Part shown: positions 6,108 to 62,001 of the stretch, piece by piece
Layout: every line of letters begins with the position of its first letter
Numbering within the stretch: position 1 is the stretch's first letter
IMG/VR virus record: IMGVR_UViG_3300027746_000020
Coordinates: 7,704-71,703 of that record
DNA: 64,000 nucleotides
DNA from: a virus
Strand: one strand, 5' to 3'
Notes under the pieces: generated by a model
What the model saw: the letters and a program-made list of their open reading frames with translations, nothing else
The model's database searches: none
What the model was told of the DNA's origin: nothing
Translations under genes and position numbers: made by a program

Positions 6108-6968
6108 CTATTCGCGGAACAAGCGCACAGGTCCGGTTGTGGCGAAGTTGGCTGAACCTTGAATGAAATCATCAGCAGTCGTATCGATGCTGGTGTCAAC
6201 TAGGAGGATGTCTGCGTAGTAGTAGACGGAGCCGGGTAGAAATACTATGGTGTTTCCGTCGATAGTCGCGGTTCGTGCATCAGTCCGCTGCTTAAGATAG
6301 AATTTAGCCTTCCCTTTAGCATTGTTTTCTATCATTAGGGTCATTCTAAGAATTTGGTCAATGTCATGGGTTCCGTTAGAATTCTCGCTGAATTGAATTA
6401 GAAAATCGAAGGATCCAGACCCGGTAATAGCGGTTTTAACCGAGTCACCGAACCGCTCTCCGATCACGCCGGTATCAACTGTGTTTCCCCCGAGCTTGAG
6501 ATTCCATTTTTTAATATGTCCTTGAAACGCCCAAAGTGTTGTCCCGCTGTTGGCGGTGGTATAGTCTGCATAAACGGAGGGATATGCTTGGAGGCTGGTT
6601 TCGCTGTTGACTCCTGTAATTGTGGGACGGAAAGTGGTAAGGACGGTAGTGGCCGCCCCAGAACCGGTTAGACAAAGAATTGAGTGGGCCGCAGGAACGC
6701 CTGAGAGGCTGACTCTGGTCCCAGTTGTGTTGTCTTGAGCCCCAGCGGCAGTTGTGTGCAGGGTGACCCGGTCTAAGGTGTCCCTCCAAACGAAGCCGAT
6801 TTTAGTCCCACCGGAATGGATCAGAGTGACCGCATCGCCAGGCCAAAAAGCATCGGAATTTATTGTGAACCTATTGTTCGTAGTGTCCAACGCACTCGGG
6901 GGAAGGATTATCGGGTCGGGGTACGAACGTGTTAACTGAACAATACCGTCTTTACCGAGGAGCGTCAT
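6108..6968 (-). CDS. tail tube-like protein with insertion
   Basis: LGKDG N-terminus; HIKKWNLKL...DTGVIGERF....ITGSGSFD and SANFATTGPV resemble tail-tube fold. Confidence 0.6.
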   Translation of the reverse strand: MTLLGKDGIVQLTRSYPDPIILPPSALDTTNNRFTINSDAFWPGDAVTLIHSGGTKIGFVWRDTLDRVTLHTTAAGAQDNTTGTRVSLSGVPAAHSILCLTGSGAATTVLTTFRPTITGVNSETSLQAYPSVYADYTTANSGTTLWAFQGHIKKWNLKLGGNTVDTGVIGERFGDSVKTAITGSGSFDFLIQFSENSNGTHDIDQILRMTLMIENNAKGKAKFYLKQRTDARTATIDGNTIVFLPGSVYYYADILLVDTSIDTTADDFIQGSANFATTGPVRLFRE

Positions 6969-7366
6969 TAGAAGGACTTGGAGGTAGGCTTACCAGATAG
7001 TTGAAGGGAGAGCTTGCAAACATGTGCTTCGCCGAAAGCGACAGAGAGACCAATGTTGGTAATAACTGCAGAAGATGTCAGTTCGCGTTTGGTGTTAGTA
7101 TCCCAAACAAATTGAAAAATGCTAGTTACTTCAGCAACGTCTTCGTAAATTGCATTGATGATACCGACAGCAGCTGTATCAAGGGGGTCGTAGAAAAGAG
7201 TCGCAGAAGCTTTTGTATCGCGAATGCCTGCGATATAGGTGTGGTCAAATAAGTCAAGGGTCGTACTTCGTAATGCTTCGCGGGAAATATCTATGTCGAT
7301 GTTCTTCACCTTACCTACACGTAGCGTGTTGTAGTACAGACCTGCAGAGGCACCTGTGAGAATCAT
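6968..7366 (-). CDS. tail tube-like protein
   Basis: GKVKNIDIDISREALRSTTL....TYIAGIRD..ASATLFYDP ... LSLQLSG typical of short siphovirus tube proteins. Confidence 0.65.
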   Translation of the reverse strand: MILTGASAGLYYNTLRVGKVKNIDIDISREALRSTTLDLFDHTYIAGIRDTKASATLFYDPLDTAAVGIINAIYEDVAEVTSIFQFVWDTNTKRELTSSAVITNIGLSVAFGEAHVCKLSLQLSGKPTSKSF

Positions 7367-42969: not shown

Positions 42970-43311
42970 CTACCCTCCCCACCAACCCACCGGGGATGCG
43001 GGCGGCAAGGCGGGAGGTGTGGACTGGGCGGCGCCATGCTGGCGGCCCAGGTCGTAGACGGCGCGGCCAAACTCCACAAAATCGCTGTCGAATGTGGGCC
43101 CGTGACTTGACCACGAACGCATGGCCAGCAGCTCCTCATCCGTGGCCACCGGAGCGGCCTCGGGCGAGGGGGTGGGCTCGGGGATCGGTCGCTGCTCAAG
43201 CGTCCCCACTCGCTCCAGCAGGAACAACAGCACCTGGGAGTAGGTGTCACCGACAGCAGCGGACTGTCGTAGCCAGGCCACGGTTTCATTGGAAATTTTC
43301 GCTTCAGTCAT
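42970..43311 (-). CDS. hypothetical protein
   Basis: ATGA overlap with thyX stop. Confidence 0.6.
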   Translation of the reverse strand: MTEAKISNETVAWLRQSAAVGDTYSQVLLFLLERVGTLEQRPIPEPTPSPEAAPVATDEELLAMRSWSSHGPTFDSDFVEFGRAVYDLGRQHGAAQSTPPALPPASPVGWWGG

Positions 43312-44123
43312 GGTGAGAGCCTCGCTTTGCCCCAGCGGTTAGCTTTGTACCAACCGGCTATTTCAGGAGTCCACTTCTGGAACTCGATCATCAGCAGCTC
43401 GCAGAGCGCTTGGATTTCAATCTGAGCGTCGAGCTTCGCTCGGAGATCGAGGAAGTGCATCAGGGAGCGGAGGTTGAAGGAGACGACAAAGTTCTGTCGA
43501 AAGTCGAAAGGCATGTAGCCTCGGGCGTGTTCTTCGGCAAAGCCTGCGTGTAGTTTGTTCGCGTAGCGTTCCGCGAGAAAGACGCATAACTTCTGGTCAG
43601 AATTGAGCCCATCTTCGGAGTAGATGTATTCATCTCCACCACGGTCTTTGTACCGACCTACGGGGCGGAAATAAACCAGATCAGAGATGTGGAATTGATC
43701 AGGATCGTAGCTCTCATCATTAGAAACGACCCGTTTGAATCTTTCCCCGGTGTATCGGGAAGATTGGACATCGAAGGAGACCGCTACGCGATGCGTCCGG
43801 GCCTGCTGCATCACGGAGTGGGGGAAGCCCGCTGTCGCGATCGTGATCTGAGGGTGCTCAAGAGGCCCGAAGTGGCCCCGACCTCCGGCCAAGAGGTGTT
43901 TGAGGAGGGCCTGGCCTGCTTCGTCCTCGGGGGGAGGTGTGTCGTCGATGACGGAGCCTTCGGAGTAGTCCTGGTGCATAGCCAACCAGGCGGTTTGGTT
44001 GGGCTGAGGGGTGGCTGCTACGGTCTTGGTTCGTAACCGAGGATCAGCACGGAGAAGGTAATCAGGGGTTACGAGAGTGTACTCAGTTTGAGTGGGAGTG
44101 GGTTGCTCGGTTTGATTACTCAT
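43308..44123 (-). CDS. thyX: FAD-dependent thymidylate synthase
   Basis: GHFGPLEH, QARTHRVAVSFDVQSSRY, E.ARG..P, NLRSLMHFLDLR...AQ.EI. Confidence 0.95.
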   Translation of the reverse strand: MSNQTEQPTPTQTEYTLVTPDYLLRADPRLRTKTVAATPQPNQTAWLAMHQDYSEGSVIDDTPPPEDEAGQALLKHLLAGGRGHFGPLEHPQITIATAGFPHSVMQQARTHRVAVSFDVQSSRYTGERFKRVVSNDESYDPDQFHISDLVYFRPVGRYKDRGGDEYIYSEDGLNSDQKLCVFLAERYANKLHAGFAEEHARGYMPFDFRQNFVVSFNLRSLMHFLDLRAKLDAQIEIQALCELLMIEFQKWTPEIAGWYKANRWGKARLSP

Positions 44124-52854: not shown

Positions 52855-54054
52855 TCATTCACCGGCTGCTGCCGGGGCGAGAGAACGGTTGCGGGCGCCT
52901 GTTGCCTGCTTCGCCACGGAGACGGAAGCCCCGGCGGCATAGCCGGCGGCGCGGCCTGCGGCGGACTGTGAGCCCTTGCGGGCAGCACCCTTACCCAGAG
53001 AAGGGTGCAGCCATGTCATGTATTCGTTGGCCGCTTCTTTCTCTTTGACGAAGGAGGATCGGAGCACCAGGCCGGGAACGTGAGTGATCCCGTTAGTGGC
53101 GGTGATACCCTCCTCCATGCGGCGTTCGTGATCGTCGCGGAGCGCTTTGGCGACACGCTGAGCCACACCTTCGCGGAAGGCTATCCAGTAGGAGCGGCCT
53201 CGGGGGACGGCGAGGACACTCCGCCCTTCACGCTGGTGCAGCTTTCTGACATCATTGTCCGCCTTCATCTCCTTCTCTACGACCCTGTCGATTGCACCTG
53301 TGAGGTACTCGATTATGTCGTAAGCCTGAGGGATCTTGATGCTCCGCCCGTAGAAGTGGATATGGGTACAGGCGTCCTGTGTGCGGCGGTAGGTGAATGT
53401 GCAGCCGTGGGTGTAAGCCACTGCTCTGAGCACCGACATAAGCCAGGTGTTCATCACCTTGGCGGTCCAGATGTGTTCCTTGACGATCTCAGGAAGGTTC
53501 TCCGCTAGGGCTCCAGCATGGGAATCTAGGCTGAGATTGTTCTTGCTGGTGAACTCTGCGTACTTGGCGGCAGCCAAGGCTGCTTCGTGTTCATTGGAGG
53601 ACGTAGTCCTCGCAAGAAGCGCAAGCGCTGTTCGTTGGGCACGGGCGGCCTCTTCCCCTTCGGGGGTCTTCGCCAGTTCGTGGTAAATGTCCACTGCCTG
53701 TCGTTGAAGAACACCATTGACATGGTTGGCAAGGAGCCGGAACTCTTTGCCGTGGGTGGGGACGTCTCCGTATTTGATGTGTTGAACGTGGTGGCACAAT
53801 TCATGCAGACCAACGTCGATGATTGCCTGGGATTGACGTTCGGGCGGGAGGCCACGGAAGAAGTCGGGATCGAGGCTGATGGTTGAGGCCGAATACCAGC
53901 CTGCCCAGCGCTGCCTGAGCTTCTTGGCAGAGGTTGAGCGTTCCCAGTGGAAGGCCCGGAGGGGCAAGGTCGTGTCTGGGAAGAGCGTGGCCAGTTGCTC
54001 GTTGAGCCAGGCGAGGACTTCGGCCTCGGGGGTAGAAGTGGAGAGGATCTTCAT
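52855..54054 (-). CDS. SprT-like zinc metallopeptidase fused to DUF2786-like domain
   Basis: LHELCHH...HGKEF (HExxH) plus LALLAR..S.NEHEA..A..K. Confidence 0.8.
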   Translation of the reverse strand: MKILSTSTPEAEVLAWLNEQLATLFPDTTLPLRAFHWERSTSAKKLRQRWAGWYSASTISLDPDFFRGLPPERQSQAIIDVGLHELCHHVQHIKYGDVPTHGKEFRLLANHVNGVLQRQAVDIYHELAKTPEGEEAARAQRTALALLARTTSSNEHEAALAAAKYAEFTSKNNLSLDSHAGALAENLPEIVKEHIWTAKVMNTWLMSVLRAVAYTHGCTFTYRRTQDACTHIHFYGRSIKIPQAYDIIEYLTGAIDRVVEKEMKADNDVRKLHQREGRSVLAVPRGRSYWIAFREGVAQRVAKALRDDHERRMEEGITATNGITHVPGLVLRSSFVKEKEAANEYMTWLHPSLGKGAARKGSQSAAGRAAGYAAGASVSVAKQATGARNRSLAPAAAGE

Positions 54055-55190: not shown

Positions 55191-55883
55191 TCAAGCCGCG
55201 CCACGGGCGATTGCGGCGGCTTTCTTGCGGCCTGAGCCGTGGGCCGGGAAGGTGACTACGACCTTGCGGTCGGATCGAGCGCAGAGGGGGATGCCTCGCG
55301 GCCCACCGCAGTTCTTGCAGTTGATGTCGTCCCGCAGGGTTGCGGGGCATTGAACGAATGTCACGCCTTCCTCGCGGAAGCAGGTTGGAGCTTCCGGGGG
55401 GACGACGCAGACCGTAGGGAGGCCGCGCAGCGCGTTGAGGGCGGCAACGTGAGTGTCCTCACAGGAGACGTTGATGGTGAAGCCGTAGGTAATGGCTTCA
55501 CGAATGGCGGAGAGGTTGTGTGTGTTGAGTCTGTGGTGCGTGTAGGTCCACGCTGCACGAAGACGCCCTGCGACTATGGCTAACTCGTTGACCAATTCGG
55601 GAATGAGATAGCCTCCGGCATGAGGCAGATCGCCAGCCACGTTGTGGCGGAACATGTCGGTGGGGCCCAGGCGTCGGAGCTTGTGGATGAACTCGCCCCA
55701 GGGGGAGCCGCGCTCGGGGACTTTCTTCCAGTGGAGAAGGGATCTGCCGTAGGCGGCGTAGCAGCCTTTGCCTGCGAATGGGCAGGTTGGAGCACAGGAG
55801 GATTGCTCCGTCATAGAGACGGCAATGGGCCCGGTCTTGCCGTTGGCGGAGACGGGGACGAAGTGGACGACAGGGGCGCTCAT
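55191..55883 (-). CDS. Cys-rich phage protein, possible Fe-S/radical-SAM-like
   Basis: S.N.KTG.I, CAPTCPF...GCYA, FRHNVAGD, WTYTH, CPA......C.NCG....LC. Confidence 0.7.
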   Translation of the reverse strand: MSAPVVHFVPVSANGKTGPIAVSMTEQSSCAPTCPFAGKGCYAAYGRSLLHWKKVPERGSPWGEFIHKLRRLGPTDMFRHNVAGDLPHAGGYLIPELVNELAIVAGRLRAAWTYTHHRLNTHNLSAIREAITYGFTINVSCEDTHVAALNALRGLPTVCVVPPEAPTCFREEGVTFVQCPATLRDDINCKNCGGPRGIPLCARSDRKVVVTFPAHGSGRKKAAAIARGAA

Positions 55884-57991: not shown

Positions 57992-58211
57992 GACTTTTTC
58001 CTGAACCGGTGAGTCTGAGGCGGCGAGAGAGTTCATCGGCATAAGTGAACGCTTGATCTGCGTAATACCCTTCGCGGACGGGGTTAAACCCACGGAGGTT
58101 TTCCGCCACTTGGCGGCAGTCGCGGATAATGAAGCGGAGCGATCCGAGATCACAAGTCGCCGCATGGCTCCGCCAACGGGCGAAGTCCTGGGGGGTGGCG
58201 TATTCGATCAT
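57975..58211 (-). CDS. hypothetical phage protein
   Basis: L.FII.DC..A......NP..EGYY.DQ..TY..EL.RR. Confidence 0.65.
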   Translation of the reverse strand: MIEYATPQDFARWRSHAATCDLGSLRFIIRDCRQVAENLRGFNPVREGYYADQAFTYADELSRRLRLTGSGKSHATTR

Positions 58212-58525
58212 GGGAGCCGTTCCATCACGAATGTGCCGTACTTGTCGGCTCCTATTGTGGAGAAACAGACGAGTCGGTAGGTAGCTCTTGGGTTGAATCG
58301 TGACAGAGCTTCTAACACTGCGGCTAAATGATTCTCGTGCATAGTCAGAGAATAGTCCTTGGATTCAGAAGCTCGAACCATTCCGCAGTGAGCGATGAAG
58401 GCGGTGTTCCCGTTACTATCAAGGGTTTTGACAGTTCGGACTACATCCAGGATCGGACGCGGCGTGGTAGTACGCCAAACGTCCATCGCGGCCCTGGCCG
58501 GATGAACAGTGATTGTCGCTGACAT
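58208..58525 (-). CDS. hypothetical protein, first ORF after early leader
   Basis: Start MSATIT ~25 nt after leader motif. Confidence 0.55.
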   Translation of the reverse strand: MSATITVHPARAAMDVWRTTTPRPILDVVRTVKTLDSNGNTAFIAHCGMVRASESKDYSLTMHENHLAAVLEALSRFNPRATYRLVCFSTIGADKYGTFVMERLP

Positions 58526-58568
58526 AGGTGTCAGACGGGCAGAGCCCGGTGGTAGTTGGACAGAAAAT

Positions 58569-59248
58569 GCCCCCGAAGGGGCAATACGACATAGGGGGAA
58601 TTGAACCACGGCTTGCGCCGTCCCGTAGGGCCCATACGAAAAGCCCACCCCGTAACAACGGAGTGGGCTAATCGCGCCTTGCCTAGCTTGCGCTAGGTAT
58701 GTCGAAAGATTTTTTCGTTGTTTGACCTCAGGCCAACGAATTGAACCATAATACCTACATCCGTCGCATAACCCTGACGGTAGGGAGCCCTTGCGGGAGT
58801 GGGGCCATGTAGGAGCGCCCCGTATCTAAGCAGCAGGAGGCCCAACCCCCCTGAGAAGTGTGCGTAGGGCCTGACAACCCCCGGTAGCACACCGCATACC
58901 TGCTTGCACTGTGAGCCCGGTCCCTCTGCACGAGGATCCTGCTTGCTAACGACGGGATCTGGCTCTCACCGGCCTCCCCATCTAACGCACACTACTGCCC
59001 CCTCCGGTAATCCGGTGCTACTAGAAACCTCACCCCCATCAGCCGACATGAAAGTCGGGAGGGATTATCGGCCCGTTCGCCGCGCTTGCTCAGGATGATA
59101 CCTGGCCGCCGGGATTTGAACGTGCGCCACTACAGCCCATCAAAGGTCCGTAGCTCACAGCTATAGCTCCAGGGTCGGCCTGGCCCGCCGCGCATGATCG
59201 GATGCGCTATTTATGGTCAGTTCACATAGGCGGTCGGTTCGGGAATGT
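58569..59248 (-). ncRNA. candidate large structured RNA / early leader ending in a tRNA-like domain
   Basis: No credible ORF; three GCAA tetraloops, one UUCG, T-loop-like GTTCAA motifs, several long-range complementary blocks; downstream of three promoters. Confidence 0.6.
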
Positions 59249-59254
59249 GAAAGT

Positions 59255-59283
59255 AGTATGGCATGGATTGGCGGATCCGTCAA
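59255..59283 (-). promoter_or_regulatory. early promoter P3
   Basis: TTGACG-17-CATACT with TGn extension. Confidence 0.75.
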
Positions 59284-59377
59284 GCGGTTCGGCCGGCGCC
59301 GGATCCGGGAACGGATCGCGACTGACGGGAGAGGAGATCCAGGGCGCGACGGCCGCCGGTTCTCTCCCGTTGGATCC

Positions 59378-59407
59378 AACCTACCACGGGATGGGCGGGA
59401 TCGTCAA
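59378..59407 (-). promoter_or_regulatory. early promoter P2
   Basis: TTGACG-18-TAGGTT with TGn extension. Confidence 0.75.
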
Positions 59408-59475
59408 CTGATTGGCCCGTCGGATCCGTGGGGATCGCGCAGCAAGAGGAAACCCGCCCGTGCGCGACGTGCGCG

Positions 59476-59504
59476 AGTCTACCACAGATCGGCGGATCCG
59501 TCAA
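59476..59504 (-). promoter_or_regulatory. early promoter P1
   Basis: TTGACG-17-TAGACT with TGn extension. Confidence 0.8.
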
Positions 59505-59605
59505 GTTTGCTGGAGTCTTATCGAGACTCAGCCTGCGACAGGCACACTGTCTATATGGCACATACAACGTCTACAAAAATGTAAATATATGTAATTTTTT
59601 ATGCT

Positions 59606-60199
59606 ATGCTTTCAGGGCATCTGATTCCTGAACCGGTGACCGAGCAGCTCTGTTTGAACCTGGGTGATGTCCCTGTAACCGTTGGGGGTCGAGTACCCAA
59701 GCCGATCCCGGAGGTAGTGTTGGAGCTATTCAGACTCTCATCTACCTCCCCGTCTGGTCTGGTGTGGGTTCATGATCGACCTCATAAGAGAACAAAAGCC
59801 GGTGACCCAGTTATTGGTAGCTTGATCAACAACAAATATAGATTGGTTCATGTTCCAGGGCATGGGCCTCACTACGCCCATCGAATCGTTTACTTCCTAC
59901 AGACAAAAGAGAACCCAGGTCACATGGTTGTGAGGCATTTAGCCGATGGAGACTTGGTACTAGGTTACCAAAGTGACAACTTACGAGATTCGCAAGGGAT
60001 ACTTAAAAAGCCTAAGGAAGGGTACAAGACTTGTAGAATGTATGAATACAAAGGTGATACCTTCAATCTTACTCGCTTGTGCAAACGGTTAGAGTTGGAC
60101 TACATGCGAATATACCAAATGACACGAAAAGGTAGAGACATTAGAGAAGTATTGGCAGAGCATGGCTTTGCCGATGTGAAGCTACTATTTACTCCCTGA
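59606..60199 (+). CDS. HNH homing endonuclease-like protein
   Basis: SPSGLVW...KAGD..G, Y.AHRIVY.L, VVRH...NL; AT-richer, opposite strand to neighbours. Confidence 0.75.
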   Translation: MLSGHLIPEPVTEQLCLNLGDVPVTVGGRVPKPIPEVVLELFRLSSTSPSGLVWVHDRPHKRTKAGDPVIGSLINNKYRLVHVPGHGPHYAHRIVYFLQTKENPGHMVVRHLADGDLVLGYQSDNLRDSQGILKKPKEGYKTCRMYEYKGDTFNLTRLCKRLELDYMRIYQMTRKGRDIREVLAEHGFADVKLLFTP

Positions 60200-61123
60200 C
60201 ATCTGCAGCCTCTCCATTTCAATCCTTAAATTATCCCTCCCTGACTTCAGCAACTGCCCGATCCTCGACTTGCTCAACTGCATATCGCTCGCTACCTCTT
60301 GCAGCCCCTTCTCTTTGACAACAATCTCCTCCAGCACATACCTCTCCTTCTCCGGCAGGCGCCGCATCGCGGCGGAGATCATCCGATGCTCTGCCGAAGG
60401 CAGGGCCAAGACGGGAGCTTCGCCGGGAGAGAGGGGGTCGAAGGGGGTGAAAGAGGAGGGAGGAGCGAAGCTGAAGCCGTCGTCCTCGGGGGAATCCACC
60501 GCCGGGATCAGCTCAATCAAGTTACTGCCTCCTTCGATGCCGGGGCGGTCGAGGCTTGCGGCCTCCGTCATGGCGTAGACCTGGCCGATCAGAAGCATGC
60601 GCTCAGGGCTGATCTTGGCGTAGGCGGCCAGCTCCTCCAGCGTGGGCTTCCGGCCTGTCCTTGACTGCATCTCCTGGCTGTACCGCTGAACCTTATTCAG
60701 CGTTTCGTAGTGGCCGATGGGAAGGCGGATGGTCCGCCCTTGGTTGTGTAGGGCTCTGGTGATGCCCTGGCGGATCCACCAATAGGCATAAGTGGAGATG
60801 CGGTAGCCGCGAGCCGGGTCGTAAAGCTCCAGGCCGCGAACCAGGCCGATGTTTCCTTCTTGTATAAGGTCGGAGAACTCCAACCCCTTGTGCTGAAACT
60901 TCTTCGCAATGGAGACCACCATTCGTAGGTTGGTGTTCACCATCGCTTTCATGCTGTGGCGCCCCCGCCGCTCTACCGTCTGCTTTGAGGCTGTCTGTTC
61001 ATGATACGAAAGTGGGTGCATCCATTCATGAATGCGGCGGCAGTGGAGAAGTTGAGCTTCCTCGCAAAGGATTGGGTACTTACCCACTTCCTGCATATAG
61101 CTGTGAAGTTCAGCATTAGCCAT
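60185..61123 (-). CDS. RNA polymerase sigma factor, sigma70 RpoD/SigA-like
   Basis: NLRMVVSIAKK, DLIQEGNIGL, YDPARGYRISTYAYWWIRQGITRA, RTIRLP, region 4 HTH. Confidence 0.95.
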   Translation of the reverse strand: MANAELHSYMQEVGKYPILCEEAQLLHCRRIHEWMHPLSYHEQTASKQTVERRGRHSMKAMVNTNLRMVVSIAKKFQHKGLEFSDLIQEGNIGLVRGLELYDPARGYRISTYAYWWIRQGITRALHNQGRTIRLPIGHYETLNKVQRYSQEMQSRTGRKPTLEELAAYAKISPERMLLIGQVYAMTEAASLDRPGIEGGSNLIELIPAVDSPEDDGFSFAPPSSFTPFDPLSPGEAPVLALPSAEHRMISAAMRRLPEKERYVLEEIVVKEKGLQEVASDMQLSKSRIGQLLKSGRDNLRIEMERLQMSGSK

Positions 61124-61138
61124 CAGCGGATTTAGGTT

Positions 61139-61417
61139 TTACCCTGAGTGAAATTCGGTGAAGCCGTCTGGGTCTTCTGTCGCAGGCTCCGAGAGAAACG
61201 CACCGTAATCCGAGTCTGTATGAATTAAGACATCGGGATGGAAGGAGTCGATTTCGATCTCCGAGTCGCCCCGCCACCAGCCGCAGAGGATCAATGTTTC
61301 CCCATACTCACCTTCCGTGTAGTTCATCACCGTCATGACTGGGCCGTTAGCGAAGCGGACGCGATGACCCCGGCGAAAGCCGGTGGTGTCGTCAAAGGTG
61401 CTTACAGCGTTAGTCAT
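61139..61417 (-). CDS. YodC/DUF2158-like protein
   Basis: G..VR...GP.MTV ... C.W ... F.PD.L. Confidence 0.7.
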   Translation of the reverse strand: MTNAVSTFDDTTGFRRGHRVRFANGPVMTVMNYTEGEYGETLILCGWWRGDSEIEIDSFHPDVLIHTDSDYGAFLSEPATEDPDGFTEFHSG

Positions 61418-62001
61418 ACGGGAACCCCCAGGAGGATGTTATTGATCGTCATGTGTAAGTCCTTGATCGAGCCGCTATTGACGATGGTCTCTTGGAACTG
61501 AGATCGGTCGAGGGGCTGTTGGGAGGAGTGCGCCATCACCTCGGTGTTTACGGCTGCGCTCGGGCGCTCCACCCGCCAGAGGGTGCTGGAGAGGTGGGAT
61601 TTGACGATGTCCAACTCATTCGGGAATCGGACATCATCGACCACGACACGACCGTAGATGCCGAGTTCCTCGACGGAGTGTTTCCAGGCGAGCAGCCAGA
61701 TTTCGGGATGGATCAGTTTCCGGCCCCACTCGGTGCTGAGTGTCTGCATCATGGACCTTGGGGTCACATCCAGTTCTGGGAGGATCTGTTCTTTAAGGAC
61801 AGGGTCGTTGAGGAGCTTGTCCCCGTAGACCTTGCTGTAGCCGAAACACTGAAGTAGCGTCCGCGTCATCAACTTCAGCGGATCGGCGAAGGGAATACGG
61901 TGGTAGTTGTACTCTTCGACCAGGAACTTGGCAATGGTGGTTTTGCCGGATCCCGGAATGGGTGAGTGAATACCGATCAGCCTGGGAAGGTTGGAAGTCA
62001 T
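61414..62001 (-). CDS. deoxynucleoside monophosphate kinase
   Basis: GSGKTT, FADPLK, TPR..MQ.L.TEWGR, VVDDVRFPNE, H.S. Confidence 0.88.
   Translation of the reverse strand: MTSNLPRLIGIHSPIPGSGKTTIAKFLVEEYNYHRIPFADPLKLMTRTLLQCFGYSKVYGDKLLNDPVLKEQILPELDVTPRSMMQTLSTEWGRKLIHPEIWLLAWKHSVEELGIYGRVVVDDVRFPNELDIVKSHLSSTLWRVERPSAAVNTEVMAHSSQQPLDRSQFQETIVNSGSIKDLHMTINNILLGVPV

What the first reader, a model, noticed from the sequence alone, without database searches (positions are those of the whole stretch)
58587..58704. 118-nt tRNA-mimic with a hairpin inserted in the T-stem
Seen (minus strand): 7-bp acceptor-like stem CGACATA/TATGTCG. The D-arm position holds CCTAGC-GCAA-GCTAGG. The anticodon position holds a 12-bp arm AGCCCACTCCGT-TGTT-ACGGGGTGGGCT followed by a T run. 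The T-arm reads GGG[ACGGC-GCAA-GCCGT]GG-TTCAATT-CCCCC, i.e. a canonical T-loop whose 5-bp stem is interrupted by a GNRA hairpin. A GCCCC-TTCG-GGGGC hairpin follows immediately. There is no anticodon loop or CCA. Inference: an RNase P/RNase Z processing signal that frees the early mRNA, a decoy for tRNA-targeting defences, or an attenuator, since the long arm plus U run looks terminator-like.
Basis: partly seen in the sequence, partly recalled or inferred. Interest (0 to 1): 0.7.

Follow-up and report, generated by a model that had tools for sequence, protein, structure and literature searches.

The report
tRNA-shaped RNA module in cyanophage leader
A freshwater cyanophage carries, between a long non-coding leader RNA and its first early gene, a 118-base fold that copies the acceptor and T arms of a tRNA but cannot decode. 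It may be a cutting signal for tRNA-processing enzymes, but this is unproven and no relatives were found.

Summary
The 118 nt fold locally into exactly that shape (-60.6 kcal/mol, z = -6.0). It is not a tRNA, tmRNA or Y RNA by ARAGORN, Rfam or the tRNA model.

The T-arm/acceptor half matches tRNA: GGTTCAATTCC, and a 5 + 7 bp stack with no spacer. The D loop, the anticodon loop and an unbroken T stem are missing. The "anticodon arm" is a canonical intrinsic terminator, and a second terminator follows the element.

The host is probably a cyanobacterium. The element ends a ~690-nt non-coding unit that follows three tandem promoters and lies ahead of the first early gene. Related phages share the promoters and the 5' part of the non-coding RNA, but not this module. 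The closest relative has a different cassette in the same slot.

No homologue turned up in any collection, so covariation is untestable. Strain variants keep the element almost unchanged.

Chance estimates run from 1 of 600 shuffles (strict, post hoc rule) to 25 of 200 (permissive rule). In long contexts other pairings compete with the fold.

Best reading (about 0.38): a t-element/mascRNA-like punctuation signal for RNase P and RNase Z. Main rival (0.30): tandem terminators that resemble a tRNA by accident.

The parts
59476..59504 (-). Tandem promoter 1 (TTGACG, 17 nt, TAGACT)
   Evidence: Promoter scan. It shares the motif TTGACGGATCCGCC with promoter 3.
59378..59406 (-). Tandem promoter 2 (TTGACG ... 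TAGGTT). Read by eye; not reported by the scan.
   Evidence: Sequence. The same three-promoter layout is seen in L003, L018 and L013.
59255..59283 (-). Tandem promoter 3 (TTGACG, 17 nt, CATACT). The swappable leader cassette starts just downstream of it.
   Evidence: Promoter scan. Homology with L002 stops right after the -10 box.
58705..59250 (-). Long non-coding leader RNA body. Its 5' part is conserved in related phages. The last 86 nt (58790-58705) are not unusually structured and end in an A/U-rich, unpaired stretch.
   Evidence: No credible ORF. nhmmer matches to L003/L004/L017, L018 and L013. Alignments. An RNA-library contig identical to the window covers 58787-59350 and runs on beyond 59350. 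Spacer z = +0.30.
58587..58704 (-). The 118-nt tRNA-shaped element as a whole.
   Evidence: Fold, (z = -6.0). Single copy in the 71.7-kb record.
58698..58704 (-). Acceptor-like stem, 5' strand (CGACAUA).
   Evidence: Pairs with 58593-58587 at probability 0.81-1.0 in the 118-nt context.
58682..58697 (-). D-position hairpin: 6 bp plus a GCAA loop, with no G18G19.
   Evidence: -8.9 kcal/mol, z = -4.2. Pair probability 0.97-1.0 in every context tested.
58629..58678 (-). Anticodon-position arm: GGC/GCC plus GCGA/UCGU, carrying the 12-bp hairpin 58669-58642 (UGUU loop) and a U run. This is intrinsic terminator 1.
   Evidence: Terminator scan: 12 pairs, 8 of them G-C. Hairpin -23.2 kcal/mol, z = -6.2. 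Pair probability 0.95-1.0.
58625..58628 (-). 4-nt variable-loop equivalent (CUAC). It holds the only listed substitution of strain variant X3 inside the element; runs X7 and X8 show the same change.
   Evidence: Fold. 58625 G>A on the plus strand in runs X3, X7 and X8.
58594..58624 (-). T arm: GGG[ACGGC-GCAA-GCCGU]GG-UUCAAUU-CCCCC. A 5-bp stem is interrupted after its third pair by a 14-nt hairpin (58621-58608). The T loop is 58605-58599.
   Evidence: Matches GGTTCRANYCC. T-stem probability 0.38-0.43 and inserted-hairpin probability 0.86-0.99 in the 118-nt context. Runs X7 and X8 lack 2 nt of the GCAA loop; by my reading this leaves a 4-bp hairpin.
58587..58593 (-). Acceptor-like stem, 3' strand (UAUGUCG). 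It abuts the T stem with no spacer and is followed by UAUU, not CCA.
58564..58583 (-). Intrinsic terminator 2: UGCCCC-UUCG-GGGGCA plus UUUU.
   Evidence: Terminator scan. -12.0 kcal/mol. In X3, two of the three listed changes here lie in the loop and one in the outermost U-A pair. The five G-C pairs are unchanged.
58208..58525 (-). First early gene (105 aa, no assigned function), 39 nt downstream of the terminator-2 U run (U run ends at 58564; ATG at 58525).
   Evidence: ORF list. Only weak family hits. The leader and gene start are shared with L002.

Best explanation
The 118 nt form one compact RNA domain that reproduces the half of a tRNA read by end-processing enzymes. That half is a 7-bp acceptor stem stacked on a 5-bp T stem, with a consensus T loop. 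The decoding parts are replaced by stable hairpins.

The domain sits at the 3' end of a long non-coding leader RNA, made from three tandem promoters of a freshwater cyanophage, and just upstream of the first early gene.

Proposed mechanism:
1. Many transcripts stop at the terminator that forms the long arm (58669-58642), or at the second terminator (58583-58568).
2. On read-through transcripts the full cloverleaf closes.
3. Host RNase P cuts at its 5' edge (58705/58704). RNase Z or exonucleases trim at its 3' edge (about 58586).
4. This separates the structured leader RNA from the early mRNA, and may release a tRNA-shaped small RNA.

In other words it would be a punctuation signal, like plant mitochondrial t-elements or the MALAT1 mascRNA.

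Shown here: the fold, the motif, the terminators, the position in the transcription unit, and retention in strain variants.
Inferred: every enzymatic step.
For: (1) The local MFE is exactly the cloverleaf, z = -6.0, with 0 of 200 shuffles as stable. It is kept in 151-nt and 201-nt contexts.

(2) The only GGTTCRANYCC in 64 kb lies here. This is the motif used to find t-elements (PMC1920247, passages read).

(3) The helices are stitched with tRNA spacing. T stem to acceptor has 0 nt, the variable loop has 4 nt, and the acceptor plus T stack is 12 bp. The all-Watson-Crick version of this arrangement appears in 1 of 600 shuffled windows, and in 986 kb of other loci only at one tRNA-sized site.

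(4) The processing determinants are perfect while the decoding parts are unrecognisable. That is not the pattern of uniform decay.

(5) The 5' flank is unpaired and A/U-rich, with U at -1. The spacer has z = +0.30, against -6.0 for the element. The 3' flank is a short trailer plus a terminator.

(6) The promoter scan of 58000-59700 reports no site between the tandem promoters and the ATG at 58525, so the early mRNA has to be made through the element.

(7) The phage sigma factor's cellular relatives are cyanobacterial: 78 of the 80 kept loci carry cyanobacterial names and 2 are "uncultured bacterium". That cyanobacterial tRNA genes mostly lack an encoded CCA and rely on RNase Z is my recollection, not a call.

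(8) Strain variant X3 is about 94% identical over 908 nt. It has 1 listed change in the 118 nt, in the variable loop, against 12 in the 96 nt downstream.

(9) Precedents: RNase P cuts phage M3 RNA, the phage C4 RNA precursor, tmRNA and other non-tRNAs (PMC11143913, passages). A 7-bp acceptor-like stem made a Y RNA cleavable by RNase P (PMC4201824, passages).
Against: - No tRNA-type model scores the element: ARAGORN 0 genes; Rfam at E <= 10 on 171 nt gives 8 hairpin-level hits and none of tRNA, tmRNA or YrlA type; RF00005 finds 0 in the whole record at E <= 10.
- The T stem needs a 14-nt insertion and has a pair probability of only about 0.4.
- There is no G18G19 D loop to build the elbow.
- The long arm is a good intrinsic terminator and would truncate the element in many transcripts.
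- In 381-741-nt contexts other pairings win. A G run at 58852-58839 competes for the T loop and CCCCC, and 58797-58785 competes for the variable region.
- A permissive chance rule fires in 25 of 200 shuffles. The strict rule is post hoc.
- No homologue was found anywhere, so there is no covariation.
- Related phages do without the module.
- The low divergence in X3 extends over 338 nt (58584-58921), so it may reflect recent recombination rather than selection on the element.
Confidence: 0.38

Rival explanations
1. Tandem-terminator insulator with an accidental tRNA look. The region is simply four stable hairpins, two of them intrinsic terminators. They end the abundant leader RNA, protect its 3' end, and throttle read-through into the early genes. 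The 7-bp closing stem and the T-loop match have no tRNA-related role.
For: Both terminator-like sites pass the scan, at -23.2 and -12.0 kcal/mol. Relatives carry a terminator hairpin at the same place without any cloverleaf. No tRNA model matches. The permissive chance rate is 25 of 200. GGTTCRANYCC alone is expected by chance. The cloverleaf closure is not favoured in long contexts. In X3, the two terminator-2 loop letters and the outermost U-A pair change while the five G-C stem pairs are kept, as expected of a plain hairpin.
Against: The helices abut with zero-nucleotide junctions in tRNA order and with a 12-bp acceptor/T stack. The strict rule fires in 1 of 600 shuffles. Two extra GNRA hairpins and a closing stem are not needed for termination. 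The element has z = -6.0, against -0.03 to -3.1 for the equivalent tails of four relatives.
Confidence: 0.3
2. Trans-acting tRNA mimic. The excised or terminated RNA binds a host or phage factor that reads the acceptor/T-arm half of tRNAs. Candidates are a tRNA-end-modifying toxin or defence enzyme, the CCA-adding enzyme, EF-Tu, or a modification enzyme. The RNA would act as a decoy or sponge.
For: Same structural evidence as the main reading. The unit is driven by three early promoters. Bacterial Y RNAs with tRNA-like domains are modified by tRNA enzymes, and one is CCA-tailed (PMC4201824, passages).
Against: There is no anticodon loop, so anticodon nucleases cannot be the target. No partner gene is in the record: TROVE 0 and CCA-adding-enzyme domain 0. 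It is a single copy with no relatives. No RNA evidence exists for a stable 118-nt species.
Confidence: 0.12
3. Riboregulator or attenuator. The 3' half of the element alternates between the cloverleaf and long-range pairing with the leader RNA (G run 58852-58839 with the T loop and CCCCC), or the 5' strand GACAUA pairs with UAUGUC at the start codon. Either switch would set termination or translation of the first early gene.
For: There is a 14-position pairing (13 pairs, one bulged U) between 58852-58839 and 58607-58593, and a further pairing of 58797-58785 with 58633-58622, in the 381-nt MFE. The cloverleaf and the alternative differ by only 0.9 kcal/mol in 481- and 741-nt contexts. The 8-mer CCTATGTC occurs both in the acceptor 3' strand region and at the start codon, 58528-58521.
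Against: In strain X3 two of the six start-codon letters that would pair are changed (58526, 58522) while the element is kept. Neither alternative pairing touches the terminator-1 hairpin, whose probability is 0.95-1.0 in all contexts. No ligand or sensor is evident. 8-9-mer repeats are expected by chance in 800 nt (my arithmetic).
Confidence: 0.1
4. Decayed tRNA gene or integration scar. A former phage tRNA gene, or the tRNA-derived core of an attP site, that picked up insertions and has no present function.
For: Phages often carry tRNA genes; more distant relatives have tRNA-sized hits next to the sigma gene (L027, L033, L044, L047). The T arm and acceptor are tRNA-like.
Against: The 20-mer covering the T loop and acceptor strand is absent from 185,579 species genomes. 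With up to 3 mismatches, 19 of 401 cyanobacterial genomes match, against a similar number of hits for the reversed control, and 5 of 5 hits checked are not tRNAs. The only integrase-like signal is below cut-off and about 57 kb away. Decay would not spare exactly the processing determinants. The element is nearly unchanged in strain variants.
Confidence: 0.08

Closest known systems
Plant mitochondrial t-elements (tRNA-like processing signals; PMC1920247, passages read)
   Same: A non-canonical cloverleaf kept only for its acceptor stem and a perfect GGTTCRANYCC T arm. It is embedded in a longer transcript next to an mRNA end. It is proposed or shown to direct RNase P and RNase Z cuts, with non-templated C/CA on the released piece.
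   Different: Organelle rather than phage. t-elements are about 74 nt without insertions. Here the T stem carries a 14-nt hairpin and the anticodon arm is an intrinsic terminator. No ends have been mapped here.
MALAT1 / MEN-beta mascRNA module (PMC8457004, search listing and start of abstract only; the rest recalled)
   Same: An abundant long non-coding RNA with a cis tRNA-like structure at its 3' end, whose cleavage by RNase P makes the mature 3' end and releases a small tRNA-like RNA.
   Different: A eukaryotic nuclear RNA with a triple-helix end. Here the setting is bacterial, with terminators. Abundance of the leader RNA is only hinted at by contig depth, and cleavage is not shown.
Phage RNase P substrates: phi80 M3 RNA and the P1/P7 C4 antisense RNA precursor (listed in PMC11143913, passages read)
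   Same: Phage-encoded non-tRNA transcripts that host RNase P recognises through a tRNA-like acceptor/T stack.
   Different: I did not compare sequences or structures. Those RNAs belong to enterobacterial phages, and their mature products have known regulatory roles.
Bacterial and phage YrlA Y RNAs (PMC4201824, passages read)
   Same: A non-decoding RNA with tRNA-like T arm, D arm and acceptor-like stem. Mycobacterium smegmatis YrlA, which has a 7-bp stem, is cut by RNase P and CCA-tailed.
   Different: YrlA is encoded next to Rsr/Ro60 and has its ends in a Ro-binding stem. Here there is no TROVE gene, no Rfam match, and the RNA ends lie at the acceptor stem.
tmRNA tRNA-like domain
   Same: Acceptor stem plus T arm, with the anticodon arm replaced by a long helix.
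   Different: There is no ARAGORN or Rfam tmRNA match. Pair 3:70 is A-U rather than G-U. There is no tag reading frame and no encoded CCA.
Phage T4 stable RNAs C and D
   Same: Small non-decoding RNAs transcribed with phage tRNA-type processing signals.
   Different: Not compared here. They lie in a tRNA gene cluster, whereas this phage record has no tRNA gene.

Membership tests
Canonical tRNA gene (Rfam RF00005 / ARAGORN) | Scores with the tRNA covariance model or with ARAGORN | tested here: not met
   ARAGORN finds 0 genes in the window. At thresholds lowered to 70% or below it gives only scattered low-grade calls. RF00005 finds 0 at E <= 10 in the whole record, while 14 of 14 control genomes ring. 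There is no tRNA hit at E <= 10 even in a 171-nt search.
Canonical tRNA gene (Rfam RF00005 / ARAGORN) | 7-nt anticodon loop on a 5-bp stem | tested here: not met
   The position holds a rod of about 19 bp that ends in a UGUU tetraloop.
Canonical tRNA gene (Rfam RF00005 / ARAGORN) | D loop with G18G19 for the elbow contact | tested here: not met
   6-bp hairpin with a GCAA tetraloop.
Canonical tRNA gene (Rfam RF00005 / ARAGORN) | 7-bp acceptor stem abutting a 5-bp T stem with a GTTCRANNC loop | tested here: inconclusive
   The sequence and spacing are met. However, the T stem is split by a 14-nt hairpin and has a pair probability of about 0.4.
tRNA-like processing signal (t-element / mascRNA class) | Conserved GGTTCRANYCC T arm in a non-canonical cloverleaf with an acceptor-like stem | tested here: met
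   GGTTCAATTCC at 58607-58597 is the only match in 64 kb. The cloverleaf is the local MFE.
tRNA-like processing signal (t-element / mascRNA class) | Transcript ends coincide with the element's edges; non-templated C/CA on the released piece | not testable with these tools
   Only assembled contigs of public runs could be laid, and these cannot show ends.
tRNA-like processing signal (t-element / mascRNA class) | Cleavage by RNase P and RNase Z | not testable with these tools
   Needs an enzyme assay.
Intrinsic (factor-independent) terminator | G+C-rich hairpin followed by a U run | tested here: met
   58669-58642 (12 pairs) plus UUUUCGU, and 58583-58568 (6 pairs) plus UUUUCUGU. Termination in vivo was not tested.
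YrlA / bacterial Y RNA | Rfam match and an adjacent Ro60 (TROVE) gene | tested here: not met
   No Rfam hit. TROVE: 0 matches in the record, while the control rings in 2 genomes.
tmRNA | ARAGORN or Rfam tmRNA match, G3-U70 pair, tag reading frame | tested here: not met
   Pair 3:70 is A-U.
attP core / host tRNA 3' fragment | Identity with the 3' end of a host tRNA or tmRNA gene, with an integrase nearby | tested here: not met
   0 exact matches of the 20-mer in genome contigs. Matches with <= 3 mismatches in 401 cyanobacterial genomes are at control level, and 5 of 5 checked are not tRNAs. The only integrase-like hit is below cut-off, at window ~1316-1438.

The most novel reading that the evidence does not exclude
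A bacterial-virus counterpart of the MALAT1-mascRNA arrangement. The cyanophage makes an abundant, structured early non-coding RNA of about 500 nt. Its 3' end is set by host tRNA-processing enzymes acting on a cis tRNA-shaped module. The cut also releases a 118-nt, CCA-tailed, non-decoding tRNA mimic. That mimic then acts in trans on a host factor that reads tRNA acceptor ends, for example a tRNA-end-directed defence toxin.
Probability: 0.12. Interest if true: 0.78.

Novelty: new variant of a known kind. Interest (0 to 1): 0.42.

Why it matters
If the reading holds, it would extend tRNA punctuation to a DNA phage of cyanobacteria. tRNA punctuation is known from organelles, from eukaryotic long non-coding RNAs and from a few enterobacterial phage RNAs. 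It would also show that RNase P and RNase Z substrates can tolerate a hairpin inside the T stem and a terminator in place of the anticodon arm.

It also draws attention to the unit the element belongs to: a leader RNA behind three tandem promoters, conserved in a small group of freshwater phages, represented in a lake metatranscriptome, and matching no Rfam family. That unit is exchanged as a cassette between close relatives.

If the rival reading holds, the element is an ordinary double terminator. The case then warns that T-loop plus closing-stem look-alikes arise by chance in hairpin-rich phage leaders.

Tried and rejected
1. Homologue searches for covariation all failed.
- 17-mer in viral contigs: 1 hit, L082, in unrelated sequence with no cloverleaf context and no tRNA.
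- 19-mer in metagenome contigs: 3 hits, L083-L085. blastn shows no similarity beyond the pattern, and they hold no tRNA.
- 20-mer in genome contigs: 0 hits.
- Single-sequence covariance model R1, searched over 79 sources (733,660 bases): only itself, plus two hits at E = 2-3. One of these overlaps a tRNA-sized hit of my detector in L027.
- R1 on 151 cyanobacterial genomes: 4 genomes at per-genome E of 0.045-0.82. Two of these match the hairpin only.
- R1 on the phage's own record: single copy.
- Leader 18-mer in viral contigs: only L002's contig.
- Degenerate leader-RNA pattern: only L018's contig.
- phages collection by blastn: no match.

2. RNA coverage. No listed contig of the RNA run X2 covers 58546-58786, which includes the element. 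The DNA runs X7 and X8 also break between 58719 and 58758. The gap therefore says nothing about processing or expression.

3. Contig depths of 124 for the leader RNA and 5 for the first gene in X2 are one figure per contig. I use them only as a weak hint that the leader RNA is abundant.

4. ARAGORN with lowered thresholds gives only inconsistent calls, for example a 75-nt "tRNA-Ala" at 58660-58586 at the 70% threshold.

5. Two further T-loop-like spots were rejected. GTTCAAATCC near 59125 and TGGTTCAATTC at 58748-58738 have no T stem and are not conserved in L003, L018 or L013.

6. The 9-mer repeats found by the repeat finder are at chance level for 800 nt. The 11-mer repeat is borderline (my arithmetic).

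7. Start-codon pairing of the acceptor 5' strand is not conserved in X3.

8. The YrlA, tmRNA and attP readings are rejected in the membership tests.

9. Relatives' tails show no analogous cloverleaf.

10. Earlier findings of this scan: nothing for this genome or for this sequence.
Full report
**What is there.**
RNAfold of the 118 nt returns the same architecture:
- A 7-bp closing stem, CGACAUA/UAUGUCG.
- A 6-bp hairpin with a GCAA loop directly after it.
- A composite arm (GGC/GCC, GCGA/UCGU) that carries a 12-bp hairpin with a UGUU loop.
- A 4-nt linker, CUAC.
- A 5-bp G/C stem with the loop UUCAAUU. Its 5' strand is interrupted after the third pair by a 14-nt GCAA hairpin.

The energy is -60.6 kcal/mol, against -40.3 +/- 3.4 for 200 shuffles (z = -6.0; none of the 200 folds as well). 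The fold is unchanged in 151-nt and 201-nt contexts. A C(UUCG)G hairpin with a U run follows after four bases.

**What it is not.**
- ARAGORN finds no tRNA or tmRNA in the window.
- Rfam at gathering thresholds finds nothing in 64 kb.
- At E <= 10, a 4.5-kb search gives two irrelevant hits. A 171-nt search gives eight hits that cover single hairpins or terminators, and none is of tRNA, tmRNA or Y-RNA type.
- The tRNA model finds nothing at E <= 10 in the whole 71.7-kb virus record, while it rings in 14 of 14 control genomes.
- The record has no TROVE/Ro60 gene and no CCA-adding-enzyme domain. Its one integrase-like match is below cut-off and about 57 kb away.
- The 20-mer covering the T loop and the 3' acceptor strand is absent from one genome each of 185,579 species.
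- With up to three mismatches, 19 of 401 sampled cyanobacterial genomes match, against a similar number of hits for the reversed control. Five of five inspected hits are not tRNAs.

So the element is not a tRNA gene, a tmRNA piece, a Y RNA, or a copy of a host tRNA end.

**How tRNA-like it is.**
The resemblance is confined to the half of a tRNA that end-processing enzymes read.
- GGTTCAATTCC fits the T-arm consensus GGTTCRANYCC. This is the motif used to find plant mitochondrial t-elements (PMC1920247, passages read). It is the only match in the window, though the motif alone is expected by chance (41 of 100 shuffles).
- The T stem's 3' strand runs straight into the 7-nt 3' acceptor strand. 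This gives a 12-bp stack, and the linker before the T stem has four bases.
- The D position has no G18G19. The anticodon position has no 7-nt loop.
- The T stem is split, with a pair probability of only 0.34-0.43.

**Is it more than chance?**
- A permissive rule of my own (T loop, 5-bp T stem with or without an inserted hairpin, abutting 7-bp stem, G-U allowed) finds the element. It also fires in 25 of 200 Markov shuffles of the window.
- With Watson-Crick pairs only, as observed, it fires in 1 of 600 shuffles. In 986 kb of fetched loci it fires only at one 82-nt, tRNA-sized site. That rule was set after seeing the element.
- The true figure lies between these two. In a scan of very many windows, some such look-alikes must arise by chance.

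**Competing folds.**
- In 381-nt and 741-nt contexts the acceptor and T-stem probabilities fall to 0-0.03.
- The competitor is a G run at 58852-58839, which pairs with the T loop and CCCCC. In addition, 58797-58785 pairs with the linker region.
- Forcing the cloverleaf costs 7.8 kcal/mol in 381 nt, but only 0.9 in 481 nt and 741 nt.
- Thermodynamics therefore does not decide. The three hairpins themselves stay at 0.57-1.0 throughout.

**Context.**
- Nearly all genes of the window are on the minus strand.
- Upstream lies a sigma-70-family gene at 61123-60185. The best cellular relatives I fetched are 33-45% identical. 78 of the 80 kept loci carry cyanobacterial names and 2 are "uncultured bacterium".
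- The runs that hold the locus are labelled lake or freshwater.
- The phage is therefore most likely a freshwater cyanophage.
- Between the sigma gene and the first early gene (ATG at 58525) lie, in order:
  - A free-standing HNH endonuclease ORF on the other strand.
  - Three tandem promoters. Promoters 1 and 3 share TTGACGGATCCGCC; promoter 2 has the same TTGACG -35 box.
  - About 690 nt with no credible ORF.
  - The element, at the 3' end of that stretch.
  - A second terminator.
- The scan found no promoter-like site between the tandem promoters and the ATG. The early genes must therefore be transcribed through the element.
- The 86 nt before the element are not unusually structured (z = +0.30) and end in an unpaired A/U-rich stretch.

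**Relatives.**
- Of 600 pattern-matched stretches in viral contigs, 599 encode a sigma relative, and the best 80 were kept.
- L003/L004/L017, L018 and (partly) L013 share the three-promoter layout and the 5' part of the non-coding RNA. A three-sequence consensus fold has 57 pairs, 8 of them with a change on both sides. That is too few sequences to prove a structure.
- None of these relatives has the element. ARAGORN finds no tRNA in 20 of 20 loci scanned. Their equivalent tails fold with z of -0.03 to -3.1 and show no cloverleaf.
- The closest relative, L002 (75% sigma identity), keeps promoter 3 and the leader just before the ATG. Between them it has about 1 kb of different sequence, in which I read apparent ATG-initiated frames by eye; no ORF list was run on L002.
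- One contig of run X3 shows the same swap: 58555 joined to 59296 with 1226 other letters between.
- The transcribed leader, element included, therefore behaves as an exchangeable cassette.

**Strain variants and RNA.**
- A 1545-nt contig of run X3 covers 58437-59344 with 51 differences and 8 gaps. 38 of its differences are listed.
- Of the 38 listed differences:
  - 1 lies in the element (58625, in the 4-nt linker).
  - 0 lie in 58705-58921.
  - 12 lie in 58488-58583.
  - 25 lie in 58922-59308.
- At the average listed density, about 16 would be expected in the 338-nt quiet block (my arithmetic). This shows either constraint on the 3' half of the leader RNA plus the element, or a recent recombination. 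It does not single out the element.
- Runs X7 and X8 lack two bases of the GCAA loop of the inserted hairpin. By my reading this leaves a 4-bp hairpin, so that tetraloop is not essential. Most of their other differences were not listed.
- In the RNA library X2, contigs identical to the window cover 58787-59350 and beyond, and 58350-58545. Contigs cannot show ends.

**Most likely mechanism.**
I read the 118 nt as one folded domain that keeps what RNase P, RNase Z and the CCA-adding enzyme recognise, and discards the decoding parts. That selective retention is what t-elements and mascRNA show, and it is not what a decaying tRNA gene would show.

Placed between a structured leader RNA and the first early mRNA, it would act as punctuation:
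1. Transcripts that pass terminator 1 close the cloverleaf.
2. RNase P cuts at 58705/58704.
3. The 3' side is trimmed near 58586. The mRNA is then left with the terminator-2 hairpin at its 5' end.

Every enzymatic step is inference. The precedents come from passages I read. Bacterial RNase P cuts phage M3 RNA and the phage C4 RNA precursor (PMC11143913). A Y RNA with a 7-bp acceptor-like stem is cut by RNase P and CCA-tailed (PMC4201824). That the lack of an encoded CCA is normal for a cyanobacterial host is my recollection, not a call.

I give this reading 0.38. The main rival, a double terminator whose tRNA look is accidental, gets 0.30. It draws on the failed model searches, the split T stem, the embedded terminator, the permissive chance rate, and the absence of the module in relatives. 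Trans-acting mimic (0.12), riboregulator (0.10) and decayed tRNA or attP scar (0.08) follow.

**Novelty.**
- My literature searches turned up no description of a tRNA-like element in a cyanophage leader, or of a tRNA-like processing signal with a hairpin in the T stem.
- A survey of candidate structured RNAs in IMG/VR exists (PMC10690425, passages read).
- If real, this is a new variant of a known kind. If the rival holds, it is ordinary.

Noticed in passing
window 59250-58705 (-); L003 6830-7390, L018 7170-7665, L013 ~6897-7354: A non-coding RNA of about 450-550 nt follows three tandem promoters at the head of the early operon. Its 5' part is conserved in a small group of freshwater phages and it matches no Rfam family. 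An RNA-library contig identical to the window covers 58787-59350 and runs on beyond 59350. It may be a new phage RNA class, and it seems more interesting than its tail.
   Followed up: partly
window 59504-59476, 59406-59378, 59283-59255 (-): Three tandem sigma-70-type promoters about 100-120 nt apart. Promoters 1 and 3 share TTGACGGATCCGCC. The same triple layout, with TTGACGG or TTGACA boxes, is seen in L003, L018 and L013.
   Followed up: partly
window 58555-59296; L002 6257-7294: The whole transcribed leader is an exchangeable cassette. L002 and one contig of run X3 keep the flanks but carry about 1.0-1.2 kb of unrelated sequence there. In L002 I read apparent ATG-initiated frames in it by eye; no ORF list was run.
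   Followed up: partly
window 58584-58921: A 338-nt block with 1 listed difference in strain variant X3, flanked by stretches with 12 differences in 96 nt and 25 in 387 nt. This points to constraint or to recent recombination.
   Followed up: partly
window 59606-60199 (+): A free-standing HNH endonuclease ORF (phrog_99, E = 1.1e-08) on the opposite strand, between the sigma gene and the promoters. It is absent at that place in L002, so it is a possible homing endonuclease that could drive local mosaicism.
   Followed up: partly
window 60185-61123 (-): A phage-encoded sigma-70-family factor with regions 2, 3 and 4. Its best cellular relatives are cyanobacterial at 33-45% identity, which points to a cyanobacterial host.
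   Followed up: partly
window 58852-58839 and 58607-58593 (-): A 14-position complementarity (13 pairs, one bulged U) between a G run in the leader RNA and the T loop plus CCCCC of the element. It competes with the cloverleaf in long-context folds.
   Followed up: partly
window 58748-58738 and 58608-58598 (-): The 11-mer TGGTTCAATTC occurs twice, 140 nt apart, on the RNA strand. The upstream copy has no T stem and is not conserved in relatives.
   Followed up: yes
window 43308-44123 (-), 61414-62001 (-), 55191-55883 (-), 52855-54054 (-): ThyX (Thy1, E = 8.5e-39), a dNMP-kinase-like protein, a DUF7227 protein (E = 2.3e-64) and a protein with SprT-like and DUF7168 domains lie among the early and middle genes.
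   Followed up: no
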